Source of the DNA: Dehalococcoidia bacterium
GTDB taxonomy: Bacteria > Chloroflexota > Dehalococcoidia > Lucifugimonadales > UBA3495
Assembly: GCA_965237595.1 (NCBI GenBank)
Contig: CBDEFY010000007.1
Location: 836,411 to 900,410, forward strand
Length of the DNA stretch: 64,000 bases
Direction of reading: 5' to 3'
Positions 27,903 to 52,179 of the stretch are shown in pieces (within the stretch, counting starts at the first letter, position 1; every line of letters begins with the position of its first letter). The position numbers were made by a program, and so were the translations under genes. Under the pieces are notes generated by a model that was not told the DNA's origin, did not search any database, and saw nothing but the letters and a program-made list of their open reading frames with translations.

Positions 27903-29564
27903 TCAACAATGGGCCGTTAGCTCAGTTTGGCAGAGCACCGGACTTTTAATCCGGGTGTCGCGGGTTCGACCCCCGCACGGCCCACCAAACTTGACGGTAA
28001 ACAGAACCGAGCCGTTCAGTGCCATCTCCTCGGCGTCTCTCCCCGGTATGGGGCTGTCCTCGGGCATCGGAATCGTGTAGCGCACCACGGCATTGTCGGG
28101 CATGACGACGATCTCCTTCACGAAGCTCTCGATGAAGGCCCTGCGCTCCGTCAGCTCGCTCTCGTTGAGGAACATGCTCATGTCTAGGGCGTAGGCTGTG
28201 ATGGTCTCCACGTCGTCCAGGACCTCTCTGCGTTGGGAGAGCATCGCCCTCGCCTCCTCCGCCGTAGCCTCCAGTTTCTCCTGCCGCTCCCTGTGCTCTC
28301 TGATGCGGGGTTTGAAGTCGTCGATGTCCAGGTCAGTGGTCTCCGCCAGGTCGTAGAGCCGTCCCAACCTGCGCTTCACGTCCACCAACTCCGCCTCGAT
28401 GGTTTCCAGCTTCTGCCTCTGCTCCTTTGCCACCCCGTCCATCTCCTCGTCCACCAGCTTCACCAACGTCCGGATGTTGGACTCGGTGAGCACGTTCTCC
28501 CGAATTTTGCCCACCACCTGCTCCTCGAAGCGGCGGGCGTTGAGCCTGGGGGCGTTGCAGGTGCCACTGCCGCGCTTGAGGAGGGACTGGCAGACGTAGT
28601 AGGCGAACTTCCCGCTCTTGGCGTCTTGGCCGGAAAGGGCGCGGTTGCACGCCTTGCACCGAACGAGCCCGCTGAGAAGATAGGTGCTGCCCACCCTGCG
28701 GGGGTGGCTCTTCCTGGGTGCGCGGGAGCGCAGCTTGCGGTTCACCCTGCGGAACCGGGCCTTGGATATGATGGCGGGGAAGGCCTTCTCCACCCGCACC
28801 GGGTCCGCCTTGTCCTTGGCGTTGGTCCCCCAGACCAGGGTTCCGGTGTACGCCTCGTTCCTCAGGATGATGTGGATGCCGTTCTTGGACCAGAGCCTGC
28901 CGGTGGGGTTGGCGATGCCCTCGTCGTTGAGGGTGCGGGTGATGTCCAGGATTCCCCTGCCTGCCTCGGCCATGCCGAAGATGCGCTCCACCACGGGCGC
29001 GGTCGTGGGATCGGGTTCCAGGGTGGGCCGCTTCTTGGCTCCGTCCTGCACCATGAGCTTCCGGTAGCCGTAGGGCACGCGACTGGCCACCCAGAAGCCT
29101 CTAGAAGCAGACTCACGCATCCCCCTGACAACTTCCTGTGCCAGATTCTCCGAGTAGAATTCGTCCACGCTCTCGATGATGGCCTCCATGAGCTTGCCGG
29201 TGGGGGAATCGTCGGCGTGCTCGGTGATGGAGACGACGCGGATGCCGCGCCGCCTCAGCATGGCCTTGAAGGCGACGGCGTGCTCGCGCTTGCGGGTGAA
29301 GCGGCTGAACTTCCAGACGAGGATCTCCTTGAAGGGGGCCTCGGGCTTGGCTGCCTCGTCCAGCATCTTTTGGAACTGGGGCCGGTCGGCGATGCGCCCG
29401 CTCTCGGCCTCGTCCACGTACTCGCGGGCGACGTGGTACCCGTTCTTCTCGGCGTAGTCCCTGAGCGCCCGCAGCTGGGCGGCCACGGACAGGTCCACGT
29501 CCTGGCGGTCGCTGGATACTCTGGCGTAGAGGGCGGCCGGTATCAGATCGAGTCGGTCGTTCAT
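27903..29564 (-). CDS. large serine recombinase
   Basis: MNDRLDLIPAALYARVSSDRQDVDLSVAAQL (catalytic Ser region), a recombinase domain, the zinc ribbon CKACNRALSG...YYVCQ, and a coiled coil. The last ~27 codons are antisense to the tRNA-Lys. Confidence 0.85.
   Translation of the reverse strand: MNDRLDLIPAALYARVSSDRQDVDLSVAAQLRALRDYAEKNGYHVAREYVDEAESGRIADRPQFQKMLDEAAKPEAPFKEILVWKFSRFTRKREHAVAFKAMLRRRGIRVVSITEHADDSPTGKLMEAIIESVDEFYSENLAQEVVRGMRESASRGFWVASRVPYGYRKLMVQDGAKKRPTLEPDPTTAPVVERIFGMAEAGRGILDITRTLNDEGIANPTGRLWSKNGIHIILRNEAYTGTLVWGTNAKDKADPVRVEKAFPAIISKARFRRVNRKLRSRAPRKSHPRRVGSTYLLSGLVRCKACNRALSGQDAKSGKFAYYVCQSLLKRGSGTCNAPRLNARRFEEQVVGKIRENVLTESNIRTLVKLVDEEMDGVAKEQRQKLETIEAELVDVKRRLGRLYDLAETTDLDIDDFKPRIREHRERQEKLEATAEEARAMLSQRREVLDDVETITAYALDMSMFLNESELTERRAFIESFVKEIVVMPDNAVVRYTIPMPEDSPIPGRDAEEMALNGSVLFTVKFGGPCGGRTRDTRIKSPVLCQTELTAHC
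27911..27987 (+). tRNA. tRNA-Lys: tRNA-Lys (anticodon UUU)
   Basis: Folded by hand. Acceptor GGGCCGT/ACGGCCC, D-arm GCTCAGTTTGGCAGAGC, anticodon arm CCGGA-CTTTTAA-TCCGG, T-arm GCGGG-TTCGACC-CCCGC, and an encoded CCA. Confidence 0.9.
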
Positions 29565-29788
29565 CGCTCTCTCCTCCCTGTCTCTTCCTGCTCGGTAGTG
29601 ATGCGGGAGCGCAGTCGTTCCAGCCGCTCCCGTCTTCGCCACTCCCTCTCCTTCATGAACAGGCGTATACCCTGTCTGAGCAGCTCGCTCACGGAGAGGT
29701 CGTCCTCCTTCATCACCTGGCGCACCTGCGCCTCCATCTCCGGGGGCAGGGAGAAGGTGATGGTCTTGGATCGCCTGGGGGTGGTCAC
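29561..29788 (-). CDS. ribbon-helix-helix (CopG-like) protein coupled to the recombinase
   Basis: VTTPRRSKTITFSLPPEMEAQVRQVMKEDDLSVSELLRQGIRLF. GTG 29788 sits behind GGAG. The stop overlaps the recombinase ATG (ATGA). The longer ORF start lies inside the IS end. Confidence 0.6.
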   Translation of the reverse strand: MTTPRRSKTITFSLPPEMEAQVRQVMKEDDLSVSELLRQGIRLFMKEREWRRRERLERLRSRITTEQEETGRRER

Positions 29789-29855
29789 AACTCTTGTCTC
29801 CTGTTGTAGTATTGTTAGCAACCAGCAAAAGTGGGACACATTGGGAGCCGAGAGA

Positions 29856-33824: not shown

Positions 33825-36800
33825 TTGATTGTGACGAGCGCAACGCATGAACACACTCTGAACGTCGCCCTCGGCGAGGTACTGGGGCGGCTGCGTCTAA
33901 GCTGGCGGACACGAAGCGAGCAGACTGGTCACGTGCTCATGGAGGGTGGTCGGCCTGACATTCTCTATAGAGGAAGCGAGCGGTTGGCCTATTGCCATCG
34001 AGGCTGAACGCAGCAATCATGCCAGTGCGGAGGCTGATGCCCAAGCGCGGCTTGGCCGCACGGTAGCTAGCACAGGCCGACAGATAGAGACCGCGATTGC
34101 GCTGGTGTACCCGGCGAACCTCCATTCACTTGACGGCTCTACGCTACGGTATGCCATTAGCAGCACTCAGGACTTAGAGTACGCGCTCTACACCCGCCGC
34201 GTCGACAGTCCGCCCGAACGCCTGCCGTCCCAGGGGTGGATTACCGGCAGCGTGCGAGACCTGGCTATGCTCGTCCATCGTGCCGCCGTTCCCCCACCCA
34301 GGGTCGCAGCGCTCGCCTTTGAACTTGAGGATGGTGTGAGGCTCGCGGCAGAGGAGTTTACACGCAGGCATCCTTACGGAAATGAACTTGGGACAAGAGT
34401 CGCGAGCGTCCTTGGCCAATCGGACGATGAAGAAGGACAGACTCGGCGCATGGCGATGACGGTGATCGTCAATGCCCTCGTCTTTCACGAATCGCTTGCC
34501 GAGGTCGAGTTCAATGTTCCGGACGCTGAAGCAGGTAGTAGACGTGGAGTACGCCCTATCGAGTCTTTCCGTCCTGGGAGTGTATTCGCTCCTGAAGAGG
34601 TTTGCCTGGAATGGGAGAGAATTCTGACTGTCAACTACTGGCCTATCTTCTGGTCTGCCAAGGAGATGCTGCGTCTCATGCCGACTGCGACAGTCAACGC
34701 CTTGCTGAGTTGGCTTTGGCAGACGGGCCAGAAGCTCGTCGCGGGAGGTGTGACTCGTTCACATGATCTCATGGGCATCGTCTTTCAGAGGCTGATTGCC
34801 GACCGCAAGTTCCTTGCAACCTACTACACACGACCAGAAGCAGCCGCTCTGCTCGCAGGCCGTTGGGAGGGGCAGACTGGGGCGAGGGCGAGACACTGGC
34901 CGGCGCACAGATAGGCGACTTCGCCTGTGGTACGGGCACCTTGCTTTCCATGGCATACCAGCGGATGTCGTTACTGCATGAACTGCATGGCGGGGATTCG
35001 CGAAAGTTGCACGGACCGATGATGCGGCACGGATTGATGGGCCTCGATGTGCTCAACATCGCCGTGCATCTGACGGCGGCGATGCTGGCCGGTAGTCAAC
35101 CTGATACCCCATTCGATGGCGAATGCCTGTTGACGATGCCCTACGGGGCACAAGAGGACGGCAACGTTGCGATTGGCTTGCTGGATCTGCTGGCCGAGAC
35201 TGTACAACCGTCACTGATGGATACCGCCGCAGCGGTATCAGCCGGGGGCAGAGCGCCTGAAAGGGTGCGTGACCTCGTGTCCAGAGTCGGACACACCCAA
35301 TTCGACCTTGTAATCATGAACCCGCCCTTCGTTCGTTCAACCGGCATGGAATCGGAGAAACGAGGAACGGGAAACCCGGCGTTTGCGGCCTTCGATACCG
35401 GCAAAGCAACCCAGCGACGTATGCAGGACTCGCTCGCTGTCCTCCGAGGGACGGCATCAATCGGTACCGGCAACGCTGGCCTCGCCGCGGACTTTCTTGA
35501 CCTCGCGTTACGCAAGGTTCGTAAGGACGGTGTGCTTGCTCTAGTGCTGCCGCTTAGCGCCGCCAGCGGAACTGAATGGGAGGATGCGCGCAAGGCCCTG
35601 GCCAAACACTGCCAGGACATTATCGTCGTAACCGTTGCAGGGGCAGGTTCCTATGACTCCTCTTTTTCTGCCGACACCGGAATGGCGGAATGCTTGCTGG
35701 TAGCCCGACGCGGTGAGACGTCGGCGCAGAAGCGAGCAACTTTCGTGATGCTTCGGCAAAGACCCAAATCCACCGTCGAGGCGGAATTGTTGGCTACCGA
35801 GATATCTCGCATTCGTGAGTCTGGCCAACTGCGTGCCGTCGAGCGTTTAGAGGGCCGTAGCGTCGTTGCCATTGGGGAGAGCGATTACGGCGTGATGCTT
35901 GACGCTCCGCTTCCTGAATCAGGTCCGTGGCCCCTCGTGGGAATTCGTGACGAGGAGCTTGCCCAGGTGGGCTGGAACCTTGAGCGGGGGGCATTGGTCC
36001 CATTAGGGCAGCCGAATCTAGCAAGCGTCGATATAGCTATCGCACCCATAGGACAAATTGGTGGAAGAGGCCCCTACCATACGGACATCTATTGGGACCA
36101 GCCCGACGGAACGCCACGCGGTCCCTTTGAGCTGATAAAGCCGGCAGTCAGCCCAGCACCTACGTATCCGATGCTTTGGGCGCACGCTGCCAAGCGCGAG
36201 AGAAGGCTCGTTGTCGACCCAGATTCGGAAGGTCGGATAAAGGCAGCGTCGCGGAGAGTGACGCAGGATGATCTGATGGAAAAGGCTGCAAGCGTATGGG
36301 GTACCGCCACTCGGGCTCACTACAACCGCGATTTGCAATTTAATTCCCAGTCTCTCATTGTGGCGATGACGGATCGTCCGTGTATTGGCGGGCAGGCTTG
36401 GCCGTCGGTCATTTTTGAGAACAGGGAGCATGAGTACGCCTTTGCCTTGTGGAGCAACTCGACGTTGGGTTTGCTGTTGCATTGGTGGGTTGCGAACAAG
36501 ACCCAGTCCGGCCGAGGACGGACGACAGTGACTGGCATACCCAAGATTCCCACCTTAGATGTGAGAACTTTGACGGATGAGCAAAAAGCCTCCGCCATGA
36601 CCCCGTTTGAAGCCTTGCAGGAGCGGCGGTTTCTCCCATTCGACCAGATTGACGAGGACCCGGCCCGAGCTGAACTCGACCGCCGCCTTCTGGAGGATGT
36701 GCTCGGCCTGCCGCAAACGCTATGTGAGGCTGATGGCCCCATCGACTTGCTCCGCCGTAAGCTTGCCCGCGAGCCGCAGATTCACGGTGGCAAGCAAACG

Positions 36801-36857
36801 AGAGTTGTTTTCTATGCCGAGGGGGATGAAAACAACGAGCCCCGGTCAGATCGTTAG
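33825..36857 (+). pseudogene. single-chain PD-(D/E)xK-like nuclease + gamma-class N6-adenine DNA methyltransferase + TRD-like C-terminus (type IIG-like), two frameshifts as sequenced
   Basis: Three ORFs chain together. GGRPDIL / IEEASGWPIAIEAERS is the nuclease-like part (shift within 33946..34007). ...ATYYTRPEAAALLAG / ADWGEGETLAGAQIGDFACGTG is motif I (shift within 34863..34914). NPPF lies at 35319..35330. The C-terminal ~330 aa are TRD-like. Confidence 0.7.
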
Positions 36858-36966: not shown

Positions 36967-38680
36967 ATGGTGCTCTCAGACCGACAGCTGCTCGACGCCC
37001 TCAGCCGGACGCCGTTCGTCGACTCGGCGGAGCTGGCGCTCATTCTTGGCGAGCCGCACGCCACGGTTCACCGCGCCCTGTCCGGCCTGCTGGCCAACGG
37101 TGTAGCTGGCCGCGTGAGCCACGGGAGACCGCCCAGCTGCCTTCTAGCCAGAGGTACTACCTGACGGCTAGGGGCATCAGAGAGGCCACAGGAGTTCTCG
37201 GCTTGGAGACGCCTTCAGACTTCGTGCGAGCCTACCCGGTGTCCAGGCAGTGGCTGGCCTTGCTCATCCGGCGGATGGACGCGGTGGTCGCCGTCTACCG
37301 AATCGCCGCCTCGATGTCCCCCGGCATCGGCGGGCTCCGATCCCACCTGGAGTTCCACCGCAGGGGCCGCTTCGACGCCACCATCACGCTCCACGACGGC
37401 CGTAGCTTCGGTGTGGTGCGGCAAGCCTGACCCTGCGGCGTCGGTCGCTCTACGACCGGCTGAGGGCCATAGCGGAGTACGACTACACCCGCCGCCCCGA
37501 CACCGTTCTGATCCTGACGCCCAGCATCTGGGAGGAGAGGCTGACGACGAGGTTCTGCGAGGAACGGAACCTCCGTGACTGCTACGTCGCCGTGGAGTCC
37601 AGGGACGCGCTCGAAGGCCGGGACCTTCGCCTCTGGTGTTGCACCTCGTGGGTGATCGGAAGCAGGTTCTTTAGTCTGGAGACCATCAGCTCCCACAGCA
37701 GCGCCGGCGGAGCGCCCCGCACGGAGTCGCCGGAGCGGAAGCGGGCATCGCTACCCCGCCCCGAGCGGATGGTCCAGGCTGCGCCCACCTTCGGCATCAG
37801 CCCGTCTGAGAAGCGGACGCTCGACCTCATCACCGACCACCCGATGATTCCCCGTGAGCACCTGGCCACCTGGCTCGGCGTCTCTGAGGGGCGAGTCAGC
37901 CAGATGGTGCGCAGCCTCGTGAACACCTGGGGCCTCGTCGAGCGTCATGGAACAAGGGGCGACAACCGCTACACGCTGTCCGCCGAGGGCATACGCTACG
38001 TCACCCACAGGGACCGCGCCCAGCTCCCGACCACGCAGGGCATCTGGAGCACCGCCCTCACCACAGACCGCCAGGGCCGGAGACGTCACGTGGGCCACCG
38101 CATCGAGACGTGGGCTCGGCAGACGAAGCACGCCGACGGCATCACGTGGTTTCTGTCGAAGCTTGAAGCCGAGGCCAGGGCAGACCCCGACAGCGAGCTG
38201 CTGTGGTCGGTCCCCACCGCGAGGTCCGACCGGGCCTACAACTGGGTCCAGTCGGCCATCGCCCCCGACGCCGTGGGGAAGATGACCGCAGAGGGCCTTC
38301 AGATACCGTTCTACTTCGAGTACGAGCTTCGCGCCCGTCACCCCATGGGAGTCCTCGCCCGCCTGAGTCCATACAGAAGCTACTACTGGTCGAACGAGCC
38401 GGGGGACGACCAGCCGCCGTTCCCCGCTACGCTCTTCGTTGTGGACACAGAGGAGGTCGAGGCAACCTACGTGCGCACCGCTGCCCACATGAGCCGGATG
38501 TCGCTGCCCATATTCGTGTCCTGCACCTCTGTGCTGTCACGCACGGGTACCCTTGGACGGTCCTGGTATCCACTCTGGGAGCCGGAGTCTCCGAGGCGTG
38601 CGCTGTCCGAGCTGCGCCTCTATCAATGGGACTCGCTCTACCACCGGATGCGTCACCGTCCTGTAGGAGGGAATAGATAG
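36967..38680 (+). pseudogene. tandem-duplicated wHTH + replication-relaxation (Replic_Relax-like) protein, two frameshifts as sequenced
   Basis: First half: MVLSDRQLLDALSRTPFVDSAELALILGEPHATVHRALSGLLANG...YYLTARG...RFDATITLHDGRSFGVV. Second half: SPSEKRTLDLITDHPMIPREHLATWLGVSEGRVSQMVRSLV...RYTLSAEG...APDAVGKMTAEGLQIPFYFEYELR. Shifts lie near 37100..37164 and 37425..37432. Confidence 0.65.
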
Positions 38681-38758
38681 GGCCGATACGTCCCCATCTG
38701 CCCTTCCTGCTGGCTGGGGGGTACAAAATGGCACAACCGGCCCGATTTCCGGGGACTT

Positions 38759-38796
38759 CCAGAGGCCGTTTCACAGCCAAATCAGCTACGAAACGG
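38759..38796 (+). repeat. repeat-module copy alpha (hairpin part only)
   Basis: CCGTTTC-acagccaaaTCAGCTAC-GAAACGG (38766..38796). It shares the TCAGCTRCGRAAY core with copies at 41.30 and 41.86 kb. Confidence 0.55.
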
Positions 38797-38799
38797 GGT

Positions 38800-38903
38800 T
38801 GACGTGTCGCCTGACGTGTCAGGAAGAAAAATGGGAATCTATGCTAAAGTACAGGGACACTAGAATTGCACTTTTGCAACCCCATGAGGAGGGGTGACGT
38901 GTC
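38800..38903 (+). promoter_or_regulatory. three copies of TGACGTGTC around the leader of the HTH gene
   Basis: Copies at 38800..38808, 38812..38820 (tandem, 12-bp period, overlapping a TTGACG hexamer) and 38895..38903 (23 nt before ATG 38926). A TAGAAT box lies at 38861. Confidence 0.4.
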
Positions 38904-38925
38904 AGCCGATAGGGAAGGAAAACCG

Positions 38926-39390
38926 ATGGATGAGCCTGTCCGCTGGGTCACGAAAGCGGAGGCGGCGCAGGAGCTGGAGATATCCCTGTCCACCCTGGAC
39001 AGGAAGATCAGGAAGGGAGAGGTCGAGGTTGCCAGGGAAGGCAGCCGGGTCTACGTCCGGATGCACGGGCCGGAGTATCTGAGCGACGAGGAGATGCTGC
39101 GCCGGGCCATCGCCAAGGAGGATGAGCTTGAGCGGACCGTGCGGGAGTTGGAGCGAAACGCATCCGAGTTGAAGCTTAGAGCATCTGAGCTGGAGCGGCA
39201 GCGGGACGAGGCCAGGGAGTCCGCATCCGCCAGCAGACGGCCATACGAGGAGCTGGAGAAGGCGTACCGGAAGGAGACCGCCGCGACTAAGGAGACGAAG
39301 GAGCTGCTCAACATGGTCCGCGTGACCGCCGTCGTGCTGTTGGTGCTGCTGGTCGGTAGCGTTCTCGTGTGGTGGCTTGTGCTGACGTAG
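38926..39390 (+). CDS. membrane-anchored HTH (excisionase/MerR-like) coiled-coil protein
   Basis: MDEPVRWVTKAEAAQELEISLSTLDRKIRKGEVEV (HTH), then an ELERTVRELERNASELKLRASELERQRDEARE coiled coil, then a C-terminal TM VTAVVLLVLLVGSVLVWWLVL. Confidence 0.7.
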   Translation: MDEPVRWVTKAEAAQELEISLSTLDRKIRKGEVEVAREGSRVYVRMHGPEYLSDEEMLRRAIAKEDELERTVRELERNASELKLRASELERQRDEARESASASRRPYEELEKAYRKETAATKETKELLNMVRVTAVVLLVLLVGSVLVWWLVLT

Positions 39391-39445
39391 GAGGACCTGT
39401 CGGCCTTCACCCCCTGCCCGCTGAGTCTCTTTCGAATCAGTTTCG

Positions 39446-40213
39446 CTACTTGAACGTCGACGCGTCCTCGCCCACCCACTTGATAATGAGCGCATTCAGT
39501 GACCCGTCAGCCTTCATCGACTCTAAAGCCTCGTTGAGGCTTCCCTTCAGGTCGCTGTCCTTGCGGACGCCAATTCCGAGACCCCGGTCCAGCAGTATAG
39601 ATGGGCCAACAATCGCCAGTTGGCCCTCGTACTCCGCAAGTTTCTCCACGCCATAGCCGTGGTCCACGAGGACGGCATCCACCTCGCCGTTGAGCACCGC
39701 GTCTACGGCGTCTATCGATCCGTCAAGCGACACGAACGGCCTCCCCAACTCCGTGAAGTAGTCGGAGTATATGGTGTTCGCGGTAACTCCTATCGTGCCT
39801 TGGGCGGCTTCGTCGCCCGCGCCAGCCCCAGCCACGTACACGGAGGGGGTTGGCGGGTAGTAGGCTTCCGTAAAGTCGATCAGCTCCTCACGTATTGCGG
39901 TGATGCTCATGCCGGCGAGGATCGCATCGAACTCTTCCGCCACGAGGTCGGGAATCATCGTCTCCCATTCGTTCAGGACCCACTCGCACTCCAAATCGGC
40001 GCGTCGGCACAGCTCGTCCCCCAGGTCACGCTCAAGGCCGTCTATTTCGCCCTCGTCGTTGATGAAGTCGAAGGGATGGTAGTTGCCGACAGTGGCTATC
40101 GCCACCGCGTCCGCACCCCCGCATGCGGCCAGCAAAGGCATGAGCGCCGCCGCCAAAAGAAGCGCAGCAAGCACGTGTACGAACCGGCCTTCTAAGGTCA
40201 ACCCCCGTCTCAC
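39446..40213 (-). CDS. amino-acid ABC transporter substrate-binding lipoprotein (family 3), orphan
   Basis: Lipobox LLAACGG. NYHPFDFINDEGEIDGLERDLGDELCRRADLECEWV...DAILAGMSIT...IDFT. No permease or ATPase gene nearby. Confidence 0.85.
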   Translation of the reverse strand: MRRGLTLEGRFVHVLAALLLAAALMPLLAACGGADAVAIATVGNYHPFDFINDEGEIDGLERDLGDELCRRADLECEWVLNEWETMIPDLVAEEFDAILAGMSITAIREELIDFTEAYYPPTPSVYVAGAGAGDEAAQGTIGVTANTIYSDYFTELGRPFVSLDGSIDAVDAVLNGEVDAVLVDHGYGVEKLAEYEGQLAIVGPSILLDRGLGIGVRKDSDLKGSLNEALESMKADGSLNALIIKWVGEDASTFK

Positions 40214-40590
40214 TTGAGCAAGCCTCCATGATGCGCAGGCTTGGGTCGTCGTCGGGATAATTTGGTGACGTTCCGTGTGGGCGTCACCTCTTGCAAAACA
40301 ATACACGTCCGCAACCCGGACGTTCAAGGGGCAGTCTCAAAAGCTCGAAAGTCTGCTCAAGAGGAGTCCGTTGTTGGACTACATCACGATCACTGTGGAT
40401 GATGCGTCAACGTCTTCGAGGAGGGCGAGGAGCGCCCTTACCAGCCGCGTAACCGGACGTACTGCACCGGCCCACATCCATCGCCGTTTGCGCCGTGTTT
40501 TCCAACCGACCCGCCGCTTTGCCGACCTGTCTGCACCCCACCATCAATCGGGTTTCAGCCTTTCAGTCCGGAATGCAGCCTTAACTCGAA

Positions 40591-40700
40591 GTGTTGGCCG
40601 TCCACGTCCTGTAGCGGGGCGTTTACCGCTGTGCCAAGTACGAAATCGCGCCTTCCGACGCTTCGCTGCCAAACTCAAACTGCTGTACACCCCCTGCACA
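40591..40700 (+). repeat. repeat-module copy beta (about 110 nt)
   Basis: GTGTTGGCCGTCCACGTCCTGTAG-CGGGGCGTTT..GTACGAAATCGCGCC..-42 nt-CTGTACACCCCC. About 75-80% identical to copy gamma over the first 60 nt. Confidence 0.6.
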
Positions 40701-40734
40701 GGGCGGACGACCTCCATTTCGGCTGGACTTGCAA

Positions 40735-40754
40735 GGTGCATCACGTGATGCACC
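40735..40754. promoter_or_regulatory. perfect 20-bp palindrome (operator-like)
   Basis: GGTGCATCAC|GTGATGCACC, about 35 nt downstream of repeat module beta. Confidence 0.5.
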
Positions 40755-41256
40755 TCATGGGGGATATGCGAACCATCCCGCCCGGCCATACGGGAAGGTG
40801 AACGCCACGGTCGGCGCCGACATGCTTCGCGATGCAACTGGCGAGGCGTCAATAATCAGGGTCGAACCACCCGTGATCAGCAACCCGGGACCACGTCGAC
40901 AGGTGAGTGACTAATCCGGGCGTCGGATTCGTCAATGATCCGCAACCAAACGACCGAGCGGGTCAACCTAACCTGGGATTGACATGTCGATACTCTGATT
41001 CCCCGTCTCAGACTCCACGACGCGGTTGACGCGCCAGACGTTTCAGGCGTGCCCATGCCCCTCAACCTCGCTCTCATCTACGACTCGAACCCCGGTTTCC
41101 GCCTTCACGCTCCCGTACAAAATTGTCAGCTTCAGCTATGGATTTCACAGCCTTTTGTTCACCGAGCCGCTCTCCGCCGCAAACAAAAATGCCCGGATCA
41201 GCTATGGATCACTCATGGACTTGTATCCATCTGGTGGAACGTGCCCTTCCGACAAA

Positions 41257-41365
41257 GTGTTCACTGTTCACGTCCTGTAGAGGGCCGTTTCCCACTGTTT
41301 CAGCTGCGAAATGGCCCGACATGCAAATTTGTAACCAAAGTCAAATCCCTGTACACGCCCCCCGC
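41257..41365 (+). repeat. repeat-module copy gamma
   Basis: GTGTTCACTGTTCACGTCCTGTAG-AGGGCCGTTTC-ccactgtTTCAGCTGC-GAAATGGCCC-..42 nt..-CTGTACACGCCCCCC. 10-bp stem. Confidence 0.6.
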
Positions 41366-41827
41366 ATCCCGGAAGGCGCTCATGTCGTCGGACCTTATAA
41401 GGGGTCACATGAGTGTGCGGTCTCATGGGAGGTTACGTACGACTTCTCGATTGTTGACACTGGAAGGCGGACTCCGGAGCTGACGTCGCCGCCCTACTCC
41501 GCAGAGCAGCGGGAGACGCTCCGGCGCGGGCTGCGCATCCTGGCCCAGATGATCGTACGCGCCCATCTGCGGAGGCAGGTGTCCCAGTCCGGGGCTGCGC
41601 GCCGGAGTCGCCTGCGGAGGCCGAGGACGAAGACTGAGTAGCTCACCGCCTCGACTTCCGCCCTTCGGCTCCCGTTCGTCCTGTCCCCACGCCCAATTGA
41701 CAAAGTGCAATTCTCAAAGCTGGCACTGTCCCCTCCCACCCGATTCCTCTGATTGCCAAAATGCAATTTCCAAAGCTGCGATTGTCCAGTAGGGGTGGAA
41801 GGAACCCCGGAATCAAATTGCTCGTTG

Positions 41828-41920
41828 CGATGTAGCAGACAGCCTCATTCACCTCGATTTCAGCTACGGAATCGCTCAACCTGCAACTTGCCGCCTCACC
41901 CATTCTCCTGTACACGGGTA
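41828..41920 (+). repeat. repeat-module copy delta (diverged)
   Basis: CGATTTC-AGCTAC-GGAATCG hairpin (41855..41874) and CCTGTACAC 41 nt downstream (41907..41915). Confidence 0.5.
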
Positions 41921-42055
41921 ACACACCCCGAACGGTCCCACGATTCTCGTGCCCCGTGAGGAGGGGCTGTGCGCGAGCCCTGCTTGGCCCGTTTCAGCCC
42001 TCGTAGCGGCCATGCACCCCTTGCGTCAAGGTATCCTATGGCCTACAATAGGGCG

Positions 42056-42348
42056 ATGGTCGAGATTCGCCAGACTGCGGTCTACGCCCGCTGGTTCAGG
42101 CGTCTTCGGGACAGGGAGGTGAGGCGTGCAAATCGACAGCCGCACCCGGCGGTTGTCCCTGGGCAGCCCCGGCGACGTGAGTTCGGTGGGCGAAGGGGTT
42201 TCCGAGATTCACATCGACTACGGACCCGGCTACCGGGTGTACTTCGTGCAGCGGGGGGAAGCCCTGGTCGTCCTTCTGGCCGGAGGCGACAAGGACAGCC
42301 TAGGAGCGTGACATTCGAAGGGCGCTGGAGCTGGCCAGTGGACTGTAG
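42056..42348 (+). pseudogene. RelE/ParE-superfamily 'addiction module killer' (HigB-like) toxin with two +1 frameshifts
   Basis: MVEIRQTAVYARWFRRLRDREV / (A)QIDSRTRRLSLGSPGDVSSVGEGVSEIHIDYGPGYRVYFVQRGEALVVLLAGGDKDS / ERDIRRALELASGL-stop. Three frames. 293 nt is 97 codons plus 2 nt. Confidence 0.75.
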
Positions 42349-42360
42349 GGGGCAGCAGAT

Positions 42361-42711
42361 ATGGCAAGGACGCAGGCAAGGCCGTGGGACCCGGCGGAGC
42401 ATCTGGAGACCGGGGAGGACATGGCCGCCTACCTGAACGTCGCCCTAGAAGAGAGAGACCTGAGCCTGATCATGGCGACCCTGGGGGACATCGCCCGCGC
42501 CCGCAAGATGGCGATAGTGGCGGAAGAGACCGGGCTGGGCAGGGAGAGCCTCTACAAGTCGCTGTCCGCCGACGGCAACCCGGAGTTCGCCACCGTGCTC
42601 AAGGTGGTGCGCGCCCTGGGACTCCGGCTTCGAGCGACCGCAGTGCCCGGAGCAATCGGCGAACAGGATACCCGGTCTTCGGCTCTGCCCCAGGAGTCGT
42701 CGCCGATCTGA
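42361..42711 (+). CDS. higA: HigA-family addiction-module antidote protein (HTH)
   Basis: WDPAEHLETGEDMAAYLNVALEE...IARARKMAIVAEETGLGRESLYKSLSADGNPEFATVLKVVRALGLRL. Confidence 0.85.
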   Translation: MARTQARPWDPAEHLETGEDMAAYLNVALEERDLSLIMATLGDIARARKMAIVAEETGLGRESLYKSLSADGNPEFATVLKVVRALGLRLRATAVPGAIGEQDTRSSALPQESSPI

Positions 42712-42761
42712 ACAGGAGGACGTTGGATGGCGTCCGGCTTCACTACGCGATGGAGGTGAAC

Positions 42762-43499
42762 GTGAAAATGGTCAGACTGGTCTTTGCGATTGCCGTTCTC
42801 ATGTCCTTGTGCCTGTCGTGCATCGGAGGACCCGAAGTCGTCAGGATGGGCACGGAGGGAGCCTATCCCCCCTACAACTTCATCAACGACGAGGGCGAGG
42901 TCGACGGGTTCGAGCGTGAGCTGGGCGACGAGCTGTGCCGGCGGGCCGATCTGGAATGCGTCTGGGTGACCAACGAATGGGACAGCATCATACCCAACCT
43001 GGTGGAGGGCAAGTACGACACCATCATAGCGGGAATGAGCATCACCGATGAGCGGGACGAGGTCATCGACTTCACGCAGCCGTACATCCCGCCCAGTCCA
43101 TCGGTATACATCGCCCTGGCAGGGGCCAGTGACGAAGCGGTTGCCGGTAGAGTGGCCGCCCAGGTGTCCACCATCCAGGCGGACTACCTGTCGGAATCCG
43201 GCGCAACGCTGGTGGAGTACGAGTTGGCCGAAGATGTCTTTTCGGCCGTCCTGAGAGGCGAGGCGGATGCGACGCTGGTCGATATCGGGTTCGCCCACGA
43301 GTACATGACGAAGAGCGGAGAGGGACTGGCAATCGTCGGTCCCCAGGTGATGCTCGACGCCGGTACCGGCGTCGGCGTCCGGGAGTCCGACGGCGCGTTG
43401 AAAGACAAGCTGGACCGGGCCATCGACGCCATGAAAGAGGACGGCTCATTGAATGCCCTCATCGAGAAGTGGTTCGGCCCGGACGCCGAGACGTTCTAA
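42762..43499 (+). CDS. amino-acid ABC transporter substrate-binding lipoprotein (family 3), orphan paralog
   Basis: VKMVRLVFAIAVLMSLCLSCIGG. AYPPYNFINDEGEVDGFERELGDELCRRADLECVWV. By-eye alignment suggests roughly half the residues match 39446..40213. GTG 42762 lies 5 nt behind GGAGG. Confidence 0.85.
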   Translation: MKMVRLVFAIAVLMSLCLSCIGGPEVVRMGTEGAYPPYNFINDEGEVDGFERELGDELCRRADLECVWVTNEWDSIIPNLVEGKYDTIIAGMSITDERDEVIDFTQPYIPPSPSVYIALAGASDEAVAGRVAAQVSTIQADYLSESGATLVEYELAEDVFSAVLRGEADATLVDIGFAHEYMTKSGEGLAIVGPQVMLDAGTGVGVRESDGALKDKLDRAIDAMKEDGSLNALIEKWFGPDAETF

Positions 43500-44282: not shown

Positions 44283-44690
44283 GTGTCCCAATTAGAAGTA
44301 AGCAAAGCAGAGGCCGCCGAGGAACGAAGCGAGCAGACCAGGTCTTTCGTCCGTACAGTGAAGGCGGCTGCCCGACGTAAGTACACCTCCGAAGACAAGA
44401 TCCGAATTGTTCTGGAGGGCTTCCGCCGCGAGGTCACAGTCAACGACCTGTGCCGGCGGGAGGGGATCAAGCCCCACTCCTACTACTCGTGGACCAAAGA
44501 GTTCATGGAGGCGGGCAAGGAGAGGTTGACCCGTGACTCGGTTCGGGACGCCACTCAGCATGAGGTAGGGCAGCTCAAGCGAGAGAACGGGGAACTCAAG
44601 GAGCTAGTGGCCGATCTGTCGCTGGAGGCGTACCGTCTCAAAAAAACGGCCATCCCCGTGCCCCAGGACGCCACCGGTACCAGCGGATGA
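44283..44690 (+). CDS. IS3-family transposase OrfA (copy C)
   Basis: Identical 135-aa product. Confidence 0.9.
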   Translation: MSQLEVSKAEAAEERSEQTRSFVRTVKAAARRKYTSEDKIRIVLEGFRREVTVNDLCRREGIKPHSYYSWTKEFMEAGKERLTRDSVRDATQHEVGQLKRENGELKELVADLSLEAYRLKKTAIPVPQDATGTSG

Positions 44691-45673
44691 GCGCCCCGGA
44701 GAAGGCAGAGGTAGTTACCAAAGTATCCTCGTCTCCCCTCCCCAAGCGAAAGGTCCTCAGAGAGCTGGGCATCCCTAAGAGCACCTACTACCGGTGGCTC
44801 AGACGCCAAGACCAACAAGGACTTGAGGACCGACCAGGAGGCGATCAGGCACCATGGAACCGTCTTACTATTCAGGAAGAACGCTCAGTCCTGTTATCAG
44901 CCAGAGAGATGCCAGAGCTGAGCTGCCGTCAGCTGGCCGCGTGGATCACCGACAACCAGGGCTTCTCAGTCTCAGAGTCCAGCGTCTACCGTATCCTGGG
45001 CAGGGAGGGCCTAGTGAAGCGGCCTGAGATGCGGTTGGCCGCGGGGAAGGAGTACCACCGCAAGACCACAGGACCTCACCAGATGTGGGCCACCGATGCC
45101 TCATACTTCAGGGTGGTTGGTTGGGGCTACTACTACCTGGTCACCGTTATGGACGACTACTCCCGCTTCATCCTGGCTCACAGGCTTCAGCAAGATATGA
45201 CGGCCGACTCCTTCATCGAGGTGGTCCAGGATGCAGTGGACACGACCAGCATGGACCAAGTTCCAGTCACAGACCGCACCAGGCTGCTGAGTGACAACGG
45301 TCCAGGCTATGTCTAAAGAGCATTCAGGGACTACCTGGGGATGGTTGGCATCAAGCACATCCTAGCAACTCCTTTCCACCCTCAGACCAACGGGAAGCTG
45401 GAGCGCTACCACCAGACCATCAAACGGGACGTCAACCAGGTGCCTTATGAGTTGCCCGCCGACCTTGAGGCTGCTATCGCGGCCTTCGTCAGCTACTACA
45501 ACTACCGGCGCTATCACAAGGCTCTGGGCAACGTGACACCATCAGACGTGCTCAAGGGAAGACGGCAAGAGATCCTACAACGCAGGAAGGAGGTGAAGGC
45601 TCAAACCACCGAACGGCGACGACGCTACAACAGGGCCCTCAGGGAGCTCACCAGACCTCCATCCAGCCCCTGA
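44687..45673 (+). CDS. IS3-family transposase OrfB with the same in-frame TAA (45314..45316)
   Basis: ORFs 44687..45316 and 45341..45673 share one frame. Confidence 0.8.
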
Positions 45674-49878: not shown

Positions 49879-50090
49879 CCCTGTGGGATGGCTCGAACTA
49901 TAAAAGGGCAGCCTGAGGGCGTCAACTGCATCCGATTCACTCAACTGACCCACTCCCATAGGGTAACCACCCCCCTGACGAGCGTAAAAGTCTAGAATTG
50001 CCTGCCCCTGCCCAAGCGTCTCCCTCGGGGTGGTCTATTTACCCCGGACGACCCCATAACTGTCCGAAATACCTGTGCTCTCAAAGCAGG

Positions 50091-51480
50091 CTAGCCAGGT
50101 GCCAGCCGAAGCCGGCTGATCCGTTCTAGTATCCCGGTCAGCATTTCCCTGGTTGCCAGCACCTCGGCAAGCTGAAACACCAGCCTCCTTGCGTGGCGTA
50201 CCAGTCGCCCACCCGTCTTGATCAGCCTGGTCTGAAGACTGGTCAGAGTCCAGTGCTTCATATCCTCCGGCAACACCAGCCTTCTCATAAAGTTGCCCAG
50301 GTTGTAAGTCAGGACGAACAGCCATAGTCTCACCTGGTTGGCCACGAACTTGTGGCAGGAAAGCCGGGTCCAGTTCAGGGCGTACTTGCCCTCCTTGATC
50401 CACTGCTCCGCCGTGCCACGGCCATTGTAAAAGCGGACTATTCCTTTGGGTGGATAGCTCAGGTTGGTCACGATGAAACCAACCCTGGGAAATAGCTCCC
50501 CCTGATGCCACTCTACTTTAGCCACCACTCGCCTGGGCAAGTGCCAACTCTGGGCCTGATAGGCAAAGTCATGGTAGGAGACGCTAGGCTCCCGGGATGG
50601 CCATTCGGTAGGACGCTCCAGCAAGGGTTGGATCTGCTCCTGAATTACCTGATTGGCGGGAAGCCGGATGGCGTACCCGATCTTTCCTTGTTCCAGATAC
50701 TCGTATAGCTCCGGCTTGGCAAAAGCAGCGTCACCCCGGAACAGCAACCGCAGTCCTTTCTTCTGGTATCCTTTCACCACCGGCTCAAGGAGTTCCTGCC
50801 AGCCATCGGCACTATGCACGTTTCCGGGTCGTAGCGTCGCTCCTTCGCAATCCCCAAACTGGTTGAACAGAAAGAGGGGATGATAGCAGACACACTCGAA
50901 GTGCCCGTTGTAGGCGGCTCCTTCCTGCTGACCATGCACTGGACTCTCCGAACTGTCCATGTCCAGAATCACTCGCCGGTGTGGAGTGTGAGCCATGGCC
51001 AGCTCCACCCACTGGGGATTCATCAGGGCCAGCCCCTTTAGGTTGTCCTCTTGAGTCAGAGTCTCCGTCTCAAAACGGCTCATGGTGTTGGTTCTGGCGG
51101 CGTTGCGGTCTGAGCCTTGCCAGCCCACGACAACTCTCATGGCTGGGTCTTGGGAAAGACGTTCTGCATCGTTGGTATCATCGTAGTCGGCCAAGCGGCT
51201 GTAGATGGACTGGCGGAGCAGAGGGACCAGGTGGTGGCGGATGTTGCGGCCGGTACGGCTTTCCTGGAGATAGTCGGAGGCTATGGGGGTAAGGTCCAGG
51301 GCGTCATCCAGTTCTCGGAATGCCAGCAGTCCGGCGTCGGAGGTGATGGTAAGGTCCAGGGCGTCATCCAGTTCTCGGAATGCCAGCAGTCCGGCCGGAG
51401 GTGATGGTGGCACCATGTAACTCCAGCCGGATTTGGGGATTGAATTGGAGCCGAAGAGAGGCCTTTTCGCGGTCACCCAT
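50091..51480 (-). pseudogene. IS1380-family transposase, frameshifted by a 60/58-bp tandem duplication
   Basis: The canonical start MGDREKASLRLQFNPQIRLELHGATITS runs out of frame. The rest closely matches the intact copy-2 protein (by-eye alignment). Confidence 0.8.
51288..51405. repeat. tandem duplication (60 nt + 58 nt) inside the transposase gene
   Basis: GGTAAGGTCCAGGGCGTCATCCAGTTCTCGGAATGCCAGCAGTCCGGCGTCGGAGGTGAT is repeated. The second unit lacks 2 nt (GGCGTCGGA versus GGCCGGA). Confidence 0.85.
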
Positions 51481-52179
51481 CGGGTGCCTCCAATGTCGGT
51501 ACGCAAGTTATCTGAAATAGCCAACTTATTGCATGTATTATATCTGAAATACGGCTAAGAGATTCATGTAACGACTAGAAAAACAAGAAAGTTGCCTGTT
51601 TACCGCATCACTTGTTTGAGCCAAATGGGGAATACGGGGTAAGACTAAAGACGAAAGAATCACGCGATTTGTTCCCTGACCAATCGCGGATAGGGTCCTC
51701 ACAGCGGCATCCGCCCGCAGCAGGGAGGAGGCCATGTTGGAATGACTTCAGGCGAGAGAATTAGCCAACTCCACGATGTTGCCCGACCTGGGGAGCTACG
51801 CAAGGGCCTACGGCTAGTAGACGATCTCCAGACCGATCCGCCGATCTTCACCGGCCGTACGTCGAGCAACACGCCCAGCGCAAACGACGGCCGTAGCTCC
51901 TCGCACTCAAGGACGACGGCTCGCGGTCCTAGTCGGATACCAAGAGGACCGGGGTTATCTGCACAGGGTGTCAGTAGAGCGTCGTTTCCGGACTTCCTTT
52001 GGAAATTACAAACCTTAGAACTGGTGGTCGCGTTGTAGGGCGCTGCATATGCCGGCGCACGCCGATTAACCGATATTCGCAATGAGCGACGCCCCAGGGA
52101 CGGGCGAGCAGCGGGAGGGCATTGTTAAAAGTTCTTGAAAACAGGTCCGCGGCCGACGTCTCCCGCTTCGTCATCCGGA

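What the first reader, a model, noticed from the sequence alone, without database searches (positions are those of the whole stretch)
38759..42011. Family of ~110-nt repeated modules with a covarying hairpin and a fixed-distance CTGTACAC box in a 1.7-kb stretch lacking convincing ORFs
There are three same-strand units: beta 40591..40700, gamma 41257..41365 and delta 41828..41920. They share the layout [CACGTCCTGTAG]-hairpin ending in TCAGCTRCGRAAY-41/42 nt-CTGTACAC. Beta and gamma are about 75-80% identical over the first 60 nt. A fourth, partial copy (alpha, 38766..38796) sits in the leader of the HTH gene. The stems change in a compensatory way: alpha CCGTTTC/GAAACGG, gamma GGGCCGTTTC/GAAATGGCCC, delta CGATTTC/GGAATCG (G:C replaced by A:T), and beta GCGTTT/GAAATCGC with a bulge. 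Shorter GTTTCAGC / TCAGCTATGGAT half-sites recur at 40551..40576, 41131..41152, 41195..41210 and 41986..42011. Each unit lies upstream of a small gene or of nothing obvious, and 40.33-42.05 kb has no ORF I would defend. This pattern fits a structured-RNA family or a reiterated protein-binding/origin-type site belonging to the surrounding accessory element, for example sites for the neighbouring HTH or replication-relaxation-like proteins. I do not recognise it as any named element.
Basis: seen in the sequence. Interest (0 to 1): 0.7.

Follow-up and report, generated by a model that had tools for sequence, protein, structure and literature searches.

The report
Repeated promoter-like control modules in mobile element
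The repeats are real: diverged tandem copies of a ~220-base control region, conserved in a multicopy mobile-element family of sponge-type Dehalococcoidia.

Summary
The three same-strand units and the partial fourth copy exist where stated. The shared boxes are far more frequent than chance, and the box-to-box distance is fixed at 47-48 nt in 61 of 64 distinct copies. Each unit is a ~220-nt core inside a ~400-670-nt tandem segmental repeat. The same units, in the same order and strand, lie downstream of a Replic_Relax (PF13814, MOBC-type) gene in about 50 of 81 related loci from Dehalococcoidia MAGs.

The hairpin described as covarying fails a formal test on 47 copies. A different palindrome, 45-70 nt after CTGTACAC, does covary, but shows no G:T over A:C excess that would point to RNA.

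The stretch is not ORF-free. It holds the decayed remnant of a small gene that is under purifying selection in intact elements.

Best reading (about 0.5): these are reiterated promoter/operator cassettes. The half-palindrome AGCTACGAA is a regulator site, a -35-like hexamer sits 17 nt before TACACN, and the site lies about -60 from the predicted start. In the alpha copy the same site sits 61, 71-72 or 83 nt before a clear extended -10.

Rivals are recognition or nick modules for the restriction-fold relaxase, or an RNA leader. No transcript 5' ends or binding data exist. The window's copy is a decaying element.

The parts
36967..38680 (+). Replic_Relax (PF13814, MOBC-type, restriction-fold) gene. 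Intact relatives are 570 aa. In the window it is split into three frame pieces, so it is a pseudogene.
   Evidence: Pfam hit of 38 bits against a cut-off of 25.3. 1937 homologues, mostly 570 aa. tblastn places the match in pieces at 36967-37125, 37128-37424 and 37424-38677.
38766..38796 (+). Alpha: a partial unit core. It holds the AGCTACGAA site (38784-38792) between the arms CCGTTTC and GAAACGG.
   Evidence: Sequence. The equivalent site is matched by the unit profile or a motif search in most of the 81 related loci; a strict motif search finds it in 63.
38799..38903 (+). Control region of the HTH gene. It has three TGACGTGTC repeats (38800-38808, 38812-38820, 38895-38903) and an extended -10, TGCTAAAGT (38842-38850).
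   Evidence: Sequence. Relatives carry TGCTAAAAT or TGCTAAACT at 61, 71-72 or 83 nt from the AGCT site.
38926..39390 (+). Gene for a 154-aa protein with an N-terminal HTH, a coiled coil and a C-terminal hydrophobic tail.
   Evidence: Translation. Weak HTH_17 and HTH_8 hits, below the Pfam cut-offs. Conserved next to Replic_Relax in related loci.
40457..40567 (+). Upstream extension of unit A. It belongs to the same tandem segmental repeat.
   Evidence: blastn aligns window 40457-40770 with L001 11174-11486. Alignment.
40568..40790 (+). It holds CACGTCCTGTAG (40603-40614), a degenerate site AAGTACGAA (40636-40644), CTGTACAC (40683-40690) and the perfect palindrome GGTGCATCAC/GTGATGCACC (40735-40754).
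   Evidence: nhmmer score 157. Type clustering. Palindrome score 18.0, against a mean of 10.0 and a maximum of 17.5 in 30 shuffles.
41117..41209 (+). Two short sites, ACAAAAWTG..TCAGCTATGGAT, at 41117-41143 and 41183-41209, upstream of unit C.
   Evidence: Repeat family D6. Homologous sites in L020, L037 and L078.
41234..41456 (+). It holds CACGTCCTGTAG (41269-41280), the site AGCTGCGAA (41302-41310), TTGTAA-17 nt-TACACG with CTGTACAC at 41349-41356, and a degenerate palindrome near 41402-41425.
   Evidence: nhmmer score 180..
41480..41641 (+). Decayed remnant of the small gene ORF-b (..RRGLRILAQMIVRAHLRR..). The start codon region is lost and a 2-nt insertion changes the C-terminal frame.
   Evidence: Motif search. 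Alignment with intact copies. In intact copies, differences by codon position are 1354/1176/2183.
41696..41787 (+). Two 36-nt direct repeats, ATTGACAAAGTGCAATTCTCAAAGCTGGCACTGTCC-like, at 41696-41731 and 41752-41787. An inverted copy lies at 38862-38879 in the HTH gene leader.
   Evidence: Repeat families D3 and I4. In other loci this position carries TTCGTAGCT, the inverted form of the site.
41795..42015 (+). It holds the site AGCTACGGA (41862-41870), TTGCCG (41888-41893), a 17-nt spacer and TACACG (41911-41916), with CTGTACAC at 41908-41915.
   Evidence: nhmmer score 158. 15 of 16 D units have TTGnnn at 16-18 nt from the box. Homology between elements ends at the end of the D unit.
42021..42345 (+). 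First cargo gene. It has a canonical promoter, TTGCGT-17 nt-TACAAT (42021-42049), and a start codon 7 nt later (42056), so it is probably leaderless. It encodes a RelE/Gp49-like toxin and has two 1-nt insertions, so it is a pseudogene.
   Evidence: Sequence. Comparison with the L001 gene. Gene calls in L001 and L003.

Best explanation
The units are diverged tandem duplicates of the upstream control region, plus leader, of a small gene (ORF-b). They lie in the conserved core of a Replic_Relax (MOBC-type) integrated element family of Dehalococcoidia.

Each unit works on double-stranded DNA as a promoter/operator cassette:
- An element-encoded DNA-binding protein is proposed to bind the half-palindrome AGCTACGAA (ideal form TTCGTAGCTACGAA). 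Which protein is unknown.
- A -35-like hexamer follows (TTGCCG, TTGCAA, TTGGAA or CTGTYA).
- 17 nt later comes an atypical -10, TACACN, inside the invariant CTGTACA. This puts the site centre at about -60 from the predicted start.
- Further upstream boxes (GGAAC..GTGTTCAC, CCTGTAG) and a downstream palindrome add control of unknown kind.

The alpha copy is the same site placed in phase upstream of the HTH gene's extended -10 promoter.

Shown: the anatomy, the conservation, the spacing and the phasing. Inferred: protein binding, promoter activity and the start sites.

In the window the element is decaying, so these particular copies may no longer work.
For: 1. About 50 of 81 related loci carry the units. 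94 of 99 profile hits are on the strand of Replic_Relax, and almost all of these lie 0.8-5 kb downstream of it.
2. The units fall into types (A, B, C, D and others) that recur from element to element and follow one order.
3. Between types only short boxes are conserved. The invariant or near-invariant columns are GGAA, T.G.T, AGCT and CTGTACA.
4. The AGCT-to-TGTAC distance is 47-48 nt in 61 of 64 distinct units, although the sequence in between differs between types.
5. A -35-like hexamer lies 16-18 nt before TACACN: TTGnnn in 15 of 16 D units, TTGCAA or TTGTAA in 5 of 7 C units, TTGGAA in all 3 E units, CTGTYA in most B units.
6. A divergent D-like copy in L064 has TTGCTC-17 nt-TATATA at this place.
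7. In alpha the site lies 61 (24 cases, one at 62), 71-72 (29) or 83 (2) nt before the hexamer of TGCTAAAAT or TGCTAAACT. These are steps of about one helical turn. Taking TACACN as the -10 puts the unit sites on the same face, at about -60.
8. L100 carries an 11-nt tandem duplication of the site.
9. AGCTACGAA-like sites number 177 in the ~3.3-kb region per locus, against 63 in the remaining ~17 kb. Inverted TTCGTAGCT copies occur before D units.
10. Units precede the intact ORF-b, cargo genes (hicAB in L109, a secreted protein in L100), or decayed ORF-b copies.
Against: - TACACN lacks the T at the last -10 position in every copy examined, and the consensus scan finds no sigma-70-type promoter in the units.
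- Genuine promoters of the same elements are canonical: TTGCGT-17 nt-TACAAT for cargo and TTGCCC-17 nt-TACGAT for Replic_Relax.
- Type A units have only a weak -35.
- CTGTACA is conserved more strictly than a -10 usually is.
- D units are followed by cargo genes that have their own promoters.
- Low-depth metatranscriptome contigs run across the box rather than starting after it.
- The phasing rests on only a few independent indel events.
- No binding protein has been identified.
Confidence: 0.5

Rival explanations
1. The units are recognition or nick modules (oriT-like) for the neighbouring restriction-fold (PD-(D/E)XK, MOBC-type) Replic_Relax protein. Its winged-helix domains would bind AGCTACGAA. 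Its nuclease domain would cut at or near the palindromic hexamer TGTACA. The nearby long palindrome would help strand opening. Several copies would allow transfer, or relaxase-mediated recombination, of segments.
For: - Replic_Relax, alpha, the HTH gene and the units form one conserved block, running from about 70 nt before the relaxase start to the end of the D unit.
- PF13814 is classed as MOBC relaxase (PMC5357655), has a PD-(D/E)XK fold and is usually fused to HTH domains (PMC3424549).
- MOBC relaxases resemble restriction enzymes (PMC6736028).
- The most conserved columns spell the palindromic hexamer TGTACA.
- The downstream palindrome keeps its symmetry while its sequence changes, with G:T equal to A:C, as expected for a DNA-level feature.
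- The units have a fixed orientation.
- The number of units varies between elements.
Against: - Three or four copies spaced 400-670 bp apart are not the usual form of an oriT.
- About 30 loci with a full-length Replic_Relax match keep alpha but have no unit. Any essential cis site is therefore more likely alpha than the units.
- The -35-like hexamers and the phasing relative to a real promoter are not predicted by this reading.
- No conjugation genes were seen nearby, and nicking is untested.
Confidence: 0.2
2. The units are transcribed as a structured RNA: a long 5' leader or a small RNA. The covarying hairpin just before the small ORF would control translation, stability or read-through.
For: - The units have a fixed strand.
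- In 42 non-D units, 11 of the 13 pairs in the palindrome's two main helices have changes on both sides. For the tested structure as a whole, 0 of 500 shuffles reach the observed covariation score.
- A further distinct palindrome sequence occurs in L100.
- The hairpin ends a few nt before a conserved GG.AGTTAYGCCC, and the unit region precedes small ORFs or other genes.
- Low-depth RNA-library contigs overlap units.
Against: - RNAalifold finds no consensus pair in the 47-unit family alignment and almost none in the 42 non-D units.
- In the palindrome, G:T is 61 and A:C is 63, so there is no strand bias.
- The palindrome is weak or absent in D units and in most B units.
- There is no Rfam match at E<=1.
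- RNA contigs cover the cargo gene hicB but not the units in L109.
- An 11-nt duplication and phasing in steps of 10-11 nt point to double-stranded DNA.
Confidence: 0.15
3. The units are relics of old tandem segmental duplications of the ORF-b cassette and have no present function. In the window they sit in a dead element.
For: - The units are cores of ~570-nt tandem segments that include decayed ORF-b copies.
- Some elements have lost all units.
- The window's Replic_Relax, ORF-b and toxin genes are all broken.
- The window's type A site is degenerate: AAGTACGAA.
Against: - Between paralogous types the boxes and their spacing are kept, while the sequence between them and the coding parts have diverged.
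- Each type recurs across many elements.
- This pattern indicates selection on the boxes, at least in intact elements.
Confidence: 0.1

Closest known systems
Activator-dependent bacterial promoters with a phased upstream regulator site (class I type, e.g. CRP sites centred near -61.5, -71.5, -82.5; from general knowledge)
   Same: A short, partly palindromic site lies at a fixed distance upstream of a weak core promoter. Allowed positions differ by about one helical turn: about -60 in the units, and -71.5, -81.5 or -93.5 in alpha. A -35-like hexamer lies 17 nt before the -10-like box.
   Different: The -10-like box TACACN lacks the conserved final T. No start sites are known and the regulator is unknown. 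Extra conserved boxes and a long downstream palindrome have no counterpart.
oriT regions of MOBC relaxases (pAD1 TraX, CloDF13 MobC). The described layout, an inverted repeat next to short direct repeats, is recalled from memory and was not checked here.
   Same: The units lie next to a PF13814 gene. They have a reiterated short site plus a long palindrome and a fixed orientation.
   Different: There are several dispersed copies instead of one compact site. No nick site is mapped. The units are absent from about 30 loci that keep the relaxase gene. The promoter-like geometry is unexplained by this comparison.
Repeated single-strand promoter or priming elements of plasmid leading regions (Frpo/ssi type; from memory)
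   Same: Several ~200-300-nt non-coding repeats lie on one strand next to transfer functions, each upstream of small genes.
   Different: Those elements fold into one long imperfect hairpin that rebuilds -35 and -10 boxes. Here single units fold only slightly better than shuffles (z = -1.9 to -3.8) and the 47-unit family alignment has no consensus fold.
Plasmid iterons at replication origins
   Same: A short site is reiterated, mostly in direct orientation, near a gene of a family named for replication and relaxation.
   Different: Iterons are clustered at helical spacing within about 100-200 bp, next to an AT-rich stretch. Here the sites are 60-670 bp apart and no AT-rich stretch is seen.

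Membership tests
Sigma-70-type promoter with upstream regulator site | -10 hexamer with A at position 2 and T at position 6 | tested here: not met
   The box is TACACC, TACACG or TACAGC in all 47 aligned units, and none ends in T. The consensus scan finds no promoter in the units.
Sigma-70-type promoter with upstream regulator site | -35-like hexamer 16-18 nt upstream of the -10 | tested here: met
   TTGnnn in 15 of 16 D units. TTGCAA or TTGTAA in 5 of 7 C units. TTGGAA in 3 of 3 E units. CTGTYA in most B units. Type A is weak, at 3-4 of 6 matches.
Sigma-70-type promoter with upstream regulator site | Regulator site kept on one face of the helix relative to the core promoter | tested here: met
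   Units: 47-48 nt in 61 of 64 copies. Alpha: 61, 71-72 or 83 nt to a clear extended -10. An 11-nt site duplication occurs in L100. Independent events are few.
Sigma-70-type promoter with upstream regulator site | Transcription start a few nt after the -10 | not testable with these tools
   Only unstranded assembled contigs of RNA libraries were available. They are low in depth and cross the box.
oriT of a MOBC (PF13814) relaxase | Lies in cis next to the relaxase gene and is conserved with it | tested here: inconclusive
   The units are part of the conserved block in about 50 loci. They are absent from about 30 loci with a full-length relaxase match, which keep only alpha.
oriT of a MOBC (PF13814) relaxase | Strand- and site-specific nick made by the relaxase | not testable with these tools
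   This needs biochemistry or transfer assays.
Structured RNA family | Match to a curated covariance model | tested here: not met
   Rfam 15 gives only tRNA-Lys at the gathering threshold. Nothing is found at E<=1 in window 38600-42100 or in L020 11650-14000.
Structured RNA family | Conserved secondary structure supported by covariation | tested here: inconclusive
There is no consensus fold for the family. The downstream palindrome covaries but without G:U preference, 61 against 63 A:C, and it is missing from D units and most B units.
Structured RNA family | Evidence of a defined transcript | tested here: inconclusive
   In L109 the RNA contigs cover only the cargo gene hicB. A few low-depth contigs overlap units in two runs.
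Replication-origin iterons | Tight cluster of direct repeats at helical spacing beside an AT-rich unwinding stretch | tested here: not met
   The sites are 60-670 bp apart. GC stays at 0.59-0.63 across 38-43 kb.
Replic_Relax / MOBC relaxase (the neighbouring gene) | Pfam PF13814 domain above the curated cut-off | tested here: met
   38 bits against a cut-off of 25.3, E = 2.4e-9. Catalytic residues were not examined. There is no sequence match to any solved structure.

The most novel reading that the evidence does not exclude
The ~220-nt units are a new kind of multi-copy cis module read by the restriction-fold (MOBC-type) Replic_Relax protein. Binding would occur at AGCTACGAA and cutting at the invariant TGTACA, next to a structure-conserved palindrome. 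The element would then carry an array of transfer or recombination origins that lets it shuffle or mobilise cargo segments. Alternatively, the units are a new leader-RNA class built around the covarying palindrome.
Probability: 0.2. Interest if true: 0.65.

Novelty: new member of a known kind. Interest (0 to 1): 0.38.

Why it matters
The repeats mark the non-coding core of an apparently undescribed mobile-element family. The family is very common in Dehalococcoidia genomes of the kind found in sponges. About 1900 protein variants of its Replic_Relax gene are on record, and single genomes hold five or more copies. These elements carry restriction-modification, toxin-antitoxin and other cargo.

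Knowing the control or recognition sites gives a handle for three things:
- finding element boundaries;
- predicting which copies are still active;
- designing binding, reporter or nicking tests for a relaxase class (MOBC, restriction fold) whose DNA targets are poorly known.

As a kind of feature, reiterated regulator sites with promoters on a mobile element, it is ordinary.

Tried and rejected
Tested in register on 47 units and rejected.
- **Other candidate helices.** GAACGC/GTGTTC is 96% paired but never varies on both sides. CGT.CTG/CAG..ACG is 83% paired with almost no compensatory change. Both are uninformative.
- **Whole-unit RNA fold.** Single units give z = -1.9 to -3.8, with different structures each time. 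The family consensus is empty.
- **ECF-sigma-type promoter (GGAAC-N17/18-GTT at the unit's 5' end).** The motif is its own reverse complement, and it also occurs reversed in other loci. It cannot be told apart from an inverted repeat, so it is not claimed.
- **Other motifs considered by eye.** Sigma-54 and sigma-B-type promoters, a DnaA box, LexA (Cheo) box, parS and integron attC sites were looked for in the sequence. No convincing match was seen and none was tested further.
- **att site at tRNA-Lys.** No direct repeat of the tRNA 3' end occurs within 37 kb.
- **Exact-protein look-ups for the window's genes.** Not on record.
- **Pattern scans.** Viral contigs gave 0 hits. Metagenome contigs gave 26 hits, of which only 5 are real units by profile.
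- **RNA evidence.** Runs that hold the window itself carry no library description and could not be used as RNA evidence. Sponge metatranscriptome contigs were laid on L109, L020 and L029 and were inconclusive.
- **Small ORF-b protein.** No Pfam or NCBIfam family. A paralogue beside an Xre/ImmA-like switch in L055 has none of the boxes upstream.
- **Francia et al. 2013 on pAD1 TraX.** Not held in the library, so the pAD1 oriT layout is cited from memory only.

Full report
**1. What is in the window**

The stretch lies inside an integrated element beside tRNA-Lys (27911-27987). The neighbouring genes, in order, are:
- a large serine recombinase (27903-29828, - strand) and a DNA methylase (34863-36857);
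- a Replic_Relax (PF13814) gene (36967-38680);
- a small HTH gene (38926-39390);
- an SBP_bac_3 gene on the - strand (39446-40327);
- the 1.7-kb stretch in question;
- a RelE/Gp49-like toxin and its antidote (42056-42711), then a second SBP_bac_3 gene.

- TCAGCTRYGRA has five clustered + strand hits, against 0.14 expected in the window. A sixth hit, on the - strand, lies in a coding sequence.
- CTGTACAC occurs three times, always in a unit.
- CACGTCCTGTAG occurs twice.
- Beta and gamma are 71% identical over 80 nt.

**2. Relatives**

The Replic_Relax protein has 1937 homologues at E<=1e-5. The 120 best are 75-100% identical over the window's 362-residue piece, and most are 570 aa long. A scan of one genome per species returned 80 loci, all from Dehalococcoidia MAGs, often several per genome; OZ253489.1 has at least five.

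In these loci homology starts about 70 nt before the Replic_Relax start codon. That upstream stretch holds a promoter of the form TTGCCC-17 nt-TACGAT, placed so that the mRNA is probably leaderless. Homology ends at the end of the delta-type unit. Cargo differs on both sides of this block.

A profile of the unit finds 99 hits in about 50 of 81 loci. Of these, 94 are on the Replic_Relax strand, and almost all of those lie 0.8-5 kb downstream of the gene.

The units cluster into types that recur from element to element:
- type A is the window's beta;
- type B is absent from the window;
- type C is gamma;
- type D is delta;
- types E and F are rarer.

The order along an element is A-B-C-D, with subsets present.

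Outside this family the unit is rare. There were no matches in viral contigs. Of 26 pattern matches in metagenome contigs, 5 are real units.

**3. Anatomy**

Aligned over about 220 nt, all types share these boxes:
- GGAAC;
- AAAGTGTTCACTG;
- GTCCTGTAG;
- TTTCAGCTACGAAAT;
- CTCCTGTACACCCC;
- a block of the form CTTATAGGGG.

The invariant columns spell GGAA, T.G.T and CTGTACA.

The units are the cores of longer tandem segments of about 400-670 nt. In L109 one segment runs from about 840 to 1410. Each segment also contains an upstream stretch and a copy, usually decayed, of a small gene that I call ORF-b.

ORF-b encodes ..RRGLRILARMIARAHLRRQ.. followed by an acidic tail. It is intact in about 16 loci. 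Among those copies:
- differences by codon position are 1354/1176/2183;
- among codons with a single difference, 1213 changes are synonymous and 1310 are not.

This pattern is expected of a real gene.

The window's copy (about 41480-41641) has lost its start and carries a 2-nt insertion. The region is therefore not ORF-free; it holds a dead small gene.

The window's Replic_Relax gene has two frame breaks and its toxin gene has two 1-nt insertions. The whole element is decaying.

**4. The hairpin claim**

In register, delta's 5' arm lies about 10 nt closer to the loop than the arms of alpha and gamma. On 47 units the proposed helix pairs in 59% of cells and shows no more covariation than shuffled columns (451 of 500 shuffles are at least as high; per-pair counts). 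RNAalifold gives no consensus pair in the 47-unit alignment. Rfam gives nothing.

A different feature does covary: a palindrome 45-70 nt after CTGTACAC.
- Type A: GGTGCATCAC/GTGATGCACC (window 40735-40754).
- Type C: TATAGGGGCGCTCAC/GTGAGCGCCCCTATA.
- L026 (type B): CTCATAACACCCCGCACA/TGTGCGGGGTGTTATGAG.
- Type E: CTTGAAAGGGAGGG../..CCCTCCCTTTCAAG.
- L100: GCCTGTAGG/CCTACAGGC.

On 42 non-D units, 11 of the 13 pairs in its two main helices change on both sides. For the tested structure as a whole, 0 of 500 shuffles reach the observed score.

Two results weaken an RNA reading of this palindrome. Its non-Watson-Crick cells are 61 G:T against 63 A:C, so no strand is favoured. It is also weak or absent in D units and most B units.

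**5. What the boxes look like**

AGCTACGAA is the right half of the perfect 14-bp palindrome TTCGTAGCTACGAA. Left-half copies (TTCGTAGCT) occur just before D units. Right-half sites number 177 in the ~3.3-kb region per locus, against 63 in the other ~17 kb.

The distance from AGCT to TGTAC is 47-48 nt in 61 of 64 distinct units.

A -35-like hexamer lies 16-18 nt before TACACN. It is specific to each type (TTGCCG, TTGCAA, TTGGAA, CTGTYA), and type A is weak. A divergent D-like copy in L064 has TTGCTC-17 nt-TATATA at the same place.

Alpha matches the unit profile, often weakly, in most loci; a strict motif search finds the site in 63. There the site lies upstream of a clear extended -10 (TGCTAAAAT, TGCTAAACT, or TGCTAAAGT in the window at 38842-38850). 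Around it are TGACGTGTC repeats and a CTGACCGGTCAG palindrome. The distance from the site to the hexamer is 61-62 nt in 24 cases, 71-72 in 29 and 83 in 2. These are steps of about one helical turn, and some arose by adding an 11-nt repeat.

If TACACN is read as a -10, the unit sites centre at about -60. Alpha centres at -71.5, -81.5 or -93.5, on the same face of the helix. L100 has an 11-nt tandem duplication of the site. These features fit a double-stranded DNA site for a regulator placed in phase with a promoter.

**6. What argues against a promoter**

- TACACN never ends in T, and the consensus scan finds no promoter in the units.
- Real promoters of the same elements are canonical.
- CTGTACA is more strictly conserved than a -10 usually is.
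- D units are followed by cargo genes that have their own promoters.
- The only RNA data are unstranded assembled contigs. In L109 they cover the cargo gene hicB but not the units. In two other runs a few low-depth contigs cross units, box included. Nothing can be concluded about start sites.

**7. Rivals**

PF13814 is classed with MOBC relaxases (PMC5357655) and has a restriction-enzyme fold, often fused to HTH domains (PMC3424549; PMC6736028). The invariant palindromic hexamer TGTACA, the reiterated site and the strand-neutral palindrome would suit recognition or nick modules for this protein.

Against this reading, there are several dispersed copies, and about 30 loci with a full-length Replic_Relax match keep alpha but no unit. 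L007, for example, has a deletion that fuses cargo to the ORF-b tail.

An RNA leader remains possible because of the covarying palindrome.

Pure relics are unlikely in intact elements, because boxes and spacing are kept between old paralogues while the rest has drifted.

**8. Verdict**

Its central structural claim is wrong and its extent was underestimated.
- The best-supported reading (about 0.5) is a set of reiterated regulator-site-plus-promoter cassettes of a Replic_Relax element family.
- The recognition or nick-site reading stands at about 0.2, the RNA-leader reading at about 0.15 and the relic reading at about 0.1.
- As a kind of feature it is ordinary, although this family of modules and its host element appear undescribed.

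Noticed in passing
window 36967-38680: The Replic_Relax gene is broken into three frame pieces (36967-37125, 37128-37424, 37424-38677). Relatives encode one 570-aa protein.
   Followed up: partly
window 42056-42345: The RelE/Gp49-like toxin gene has two 1-nt insertions (near 42125 and 42301) relative to the intact L001 gene. The antidote gene (42361-42711, dnstrm_HI1420) looks intact. The promoter TTGCGT-17 nt-TACAAT lies 7 nt before the ATG, so the mRNA is probably leaderless.
   Followed up: yes
window 39446-40327 (-) and about 42750-43499 (+): Two paralogous SBP_bac_3 solute-binding genes lie in inverted orientation on either side of the repeat array. They are 73% complementary over 177 nt (39945-40121 against 42824-43000). 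The first is an insertion between the HTH gene and unit A. L001 has a rhomboid gene at the same place.
   Followed up: partly
window 27903-29828 and 27911-27987: The 3' end of the large serine recombinase ORF overlaps tRNA-Lys on the opposite strand. No repeat of the tRNA end was found downstream, so the element's far boundary is undefined.
   Followed up: partly
loci L004-L083 (Dehalococcoidia MAGs): The Replic_Relax element family is multicopy. OZ253489.1 holds at least 5 copies and OZ252215.1 at least 4. Partial or tandem copies lie within 10 kb of full ones (L020 3-641, L037 4200-4616, L023 4533-5324). About 1900 protein variants are on record.
   Followed up: partly
window 38800-38903; L001 and L020 equivalents: Three TGACGTGTC repeats (in relatives, a CTGACCGGTCAG palindrome) bracket the HTH gene's extended -10. 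This is a second, separate set of likely operator sites. Some loci carry an extra 11-nt copy.
   Followed up: partly
L017, L020, L037 about 12480-12580; L109 895-965: Three ATGTCATT repeats, about 34 and 22 nt apart, lie just upstream of type B units. The window lacks them because it has no B unit.
   Followed up: no
L055 19787-20098; L007 about 20435: An ORF-b-like small protein (..EGLRILARIIARHYL..) also occurs as the first gene opposite an Xre plus ImmA-like pair, beside a serine recombinase. This suggests that the family has a role in the element's regulatory switch.
   Followed up: partly
window 44283-45673; 49931-51524 and 59233-60748; 51288-51395: An IS3-type transposase pair lies just after the cargo. 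A second transposase region is repeated 9.3 kb apart at 82-88% identity. A perfect 48-nt repeat, with copies 60 nt apart start to start, lies inside it.
   Followed up: no
L007 12180-12217 (- strand), likewise L006, L012, L013, L028, L062, L068: The 5' part of the unit (CCGGAAC..AAAGTGTTCAC) occurs alone and reversed, inside an insertion between alpha and the HTH gene, next to another HTH-protein gene.
   Followed up: no
L020 12656-12709 equivalent, run X34: One 89-nt contig from a size-fractionated metatranscriptome has higher depth (16.6) than the other contigs. It ends, with adapter sequence following, 5 nt after the CTGTACAC box of a B-like unit. Its strand and meaning are unknown.
   Followed up: no
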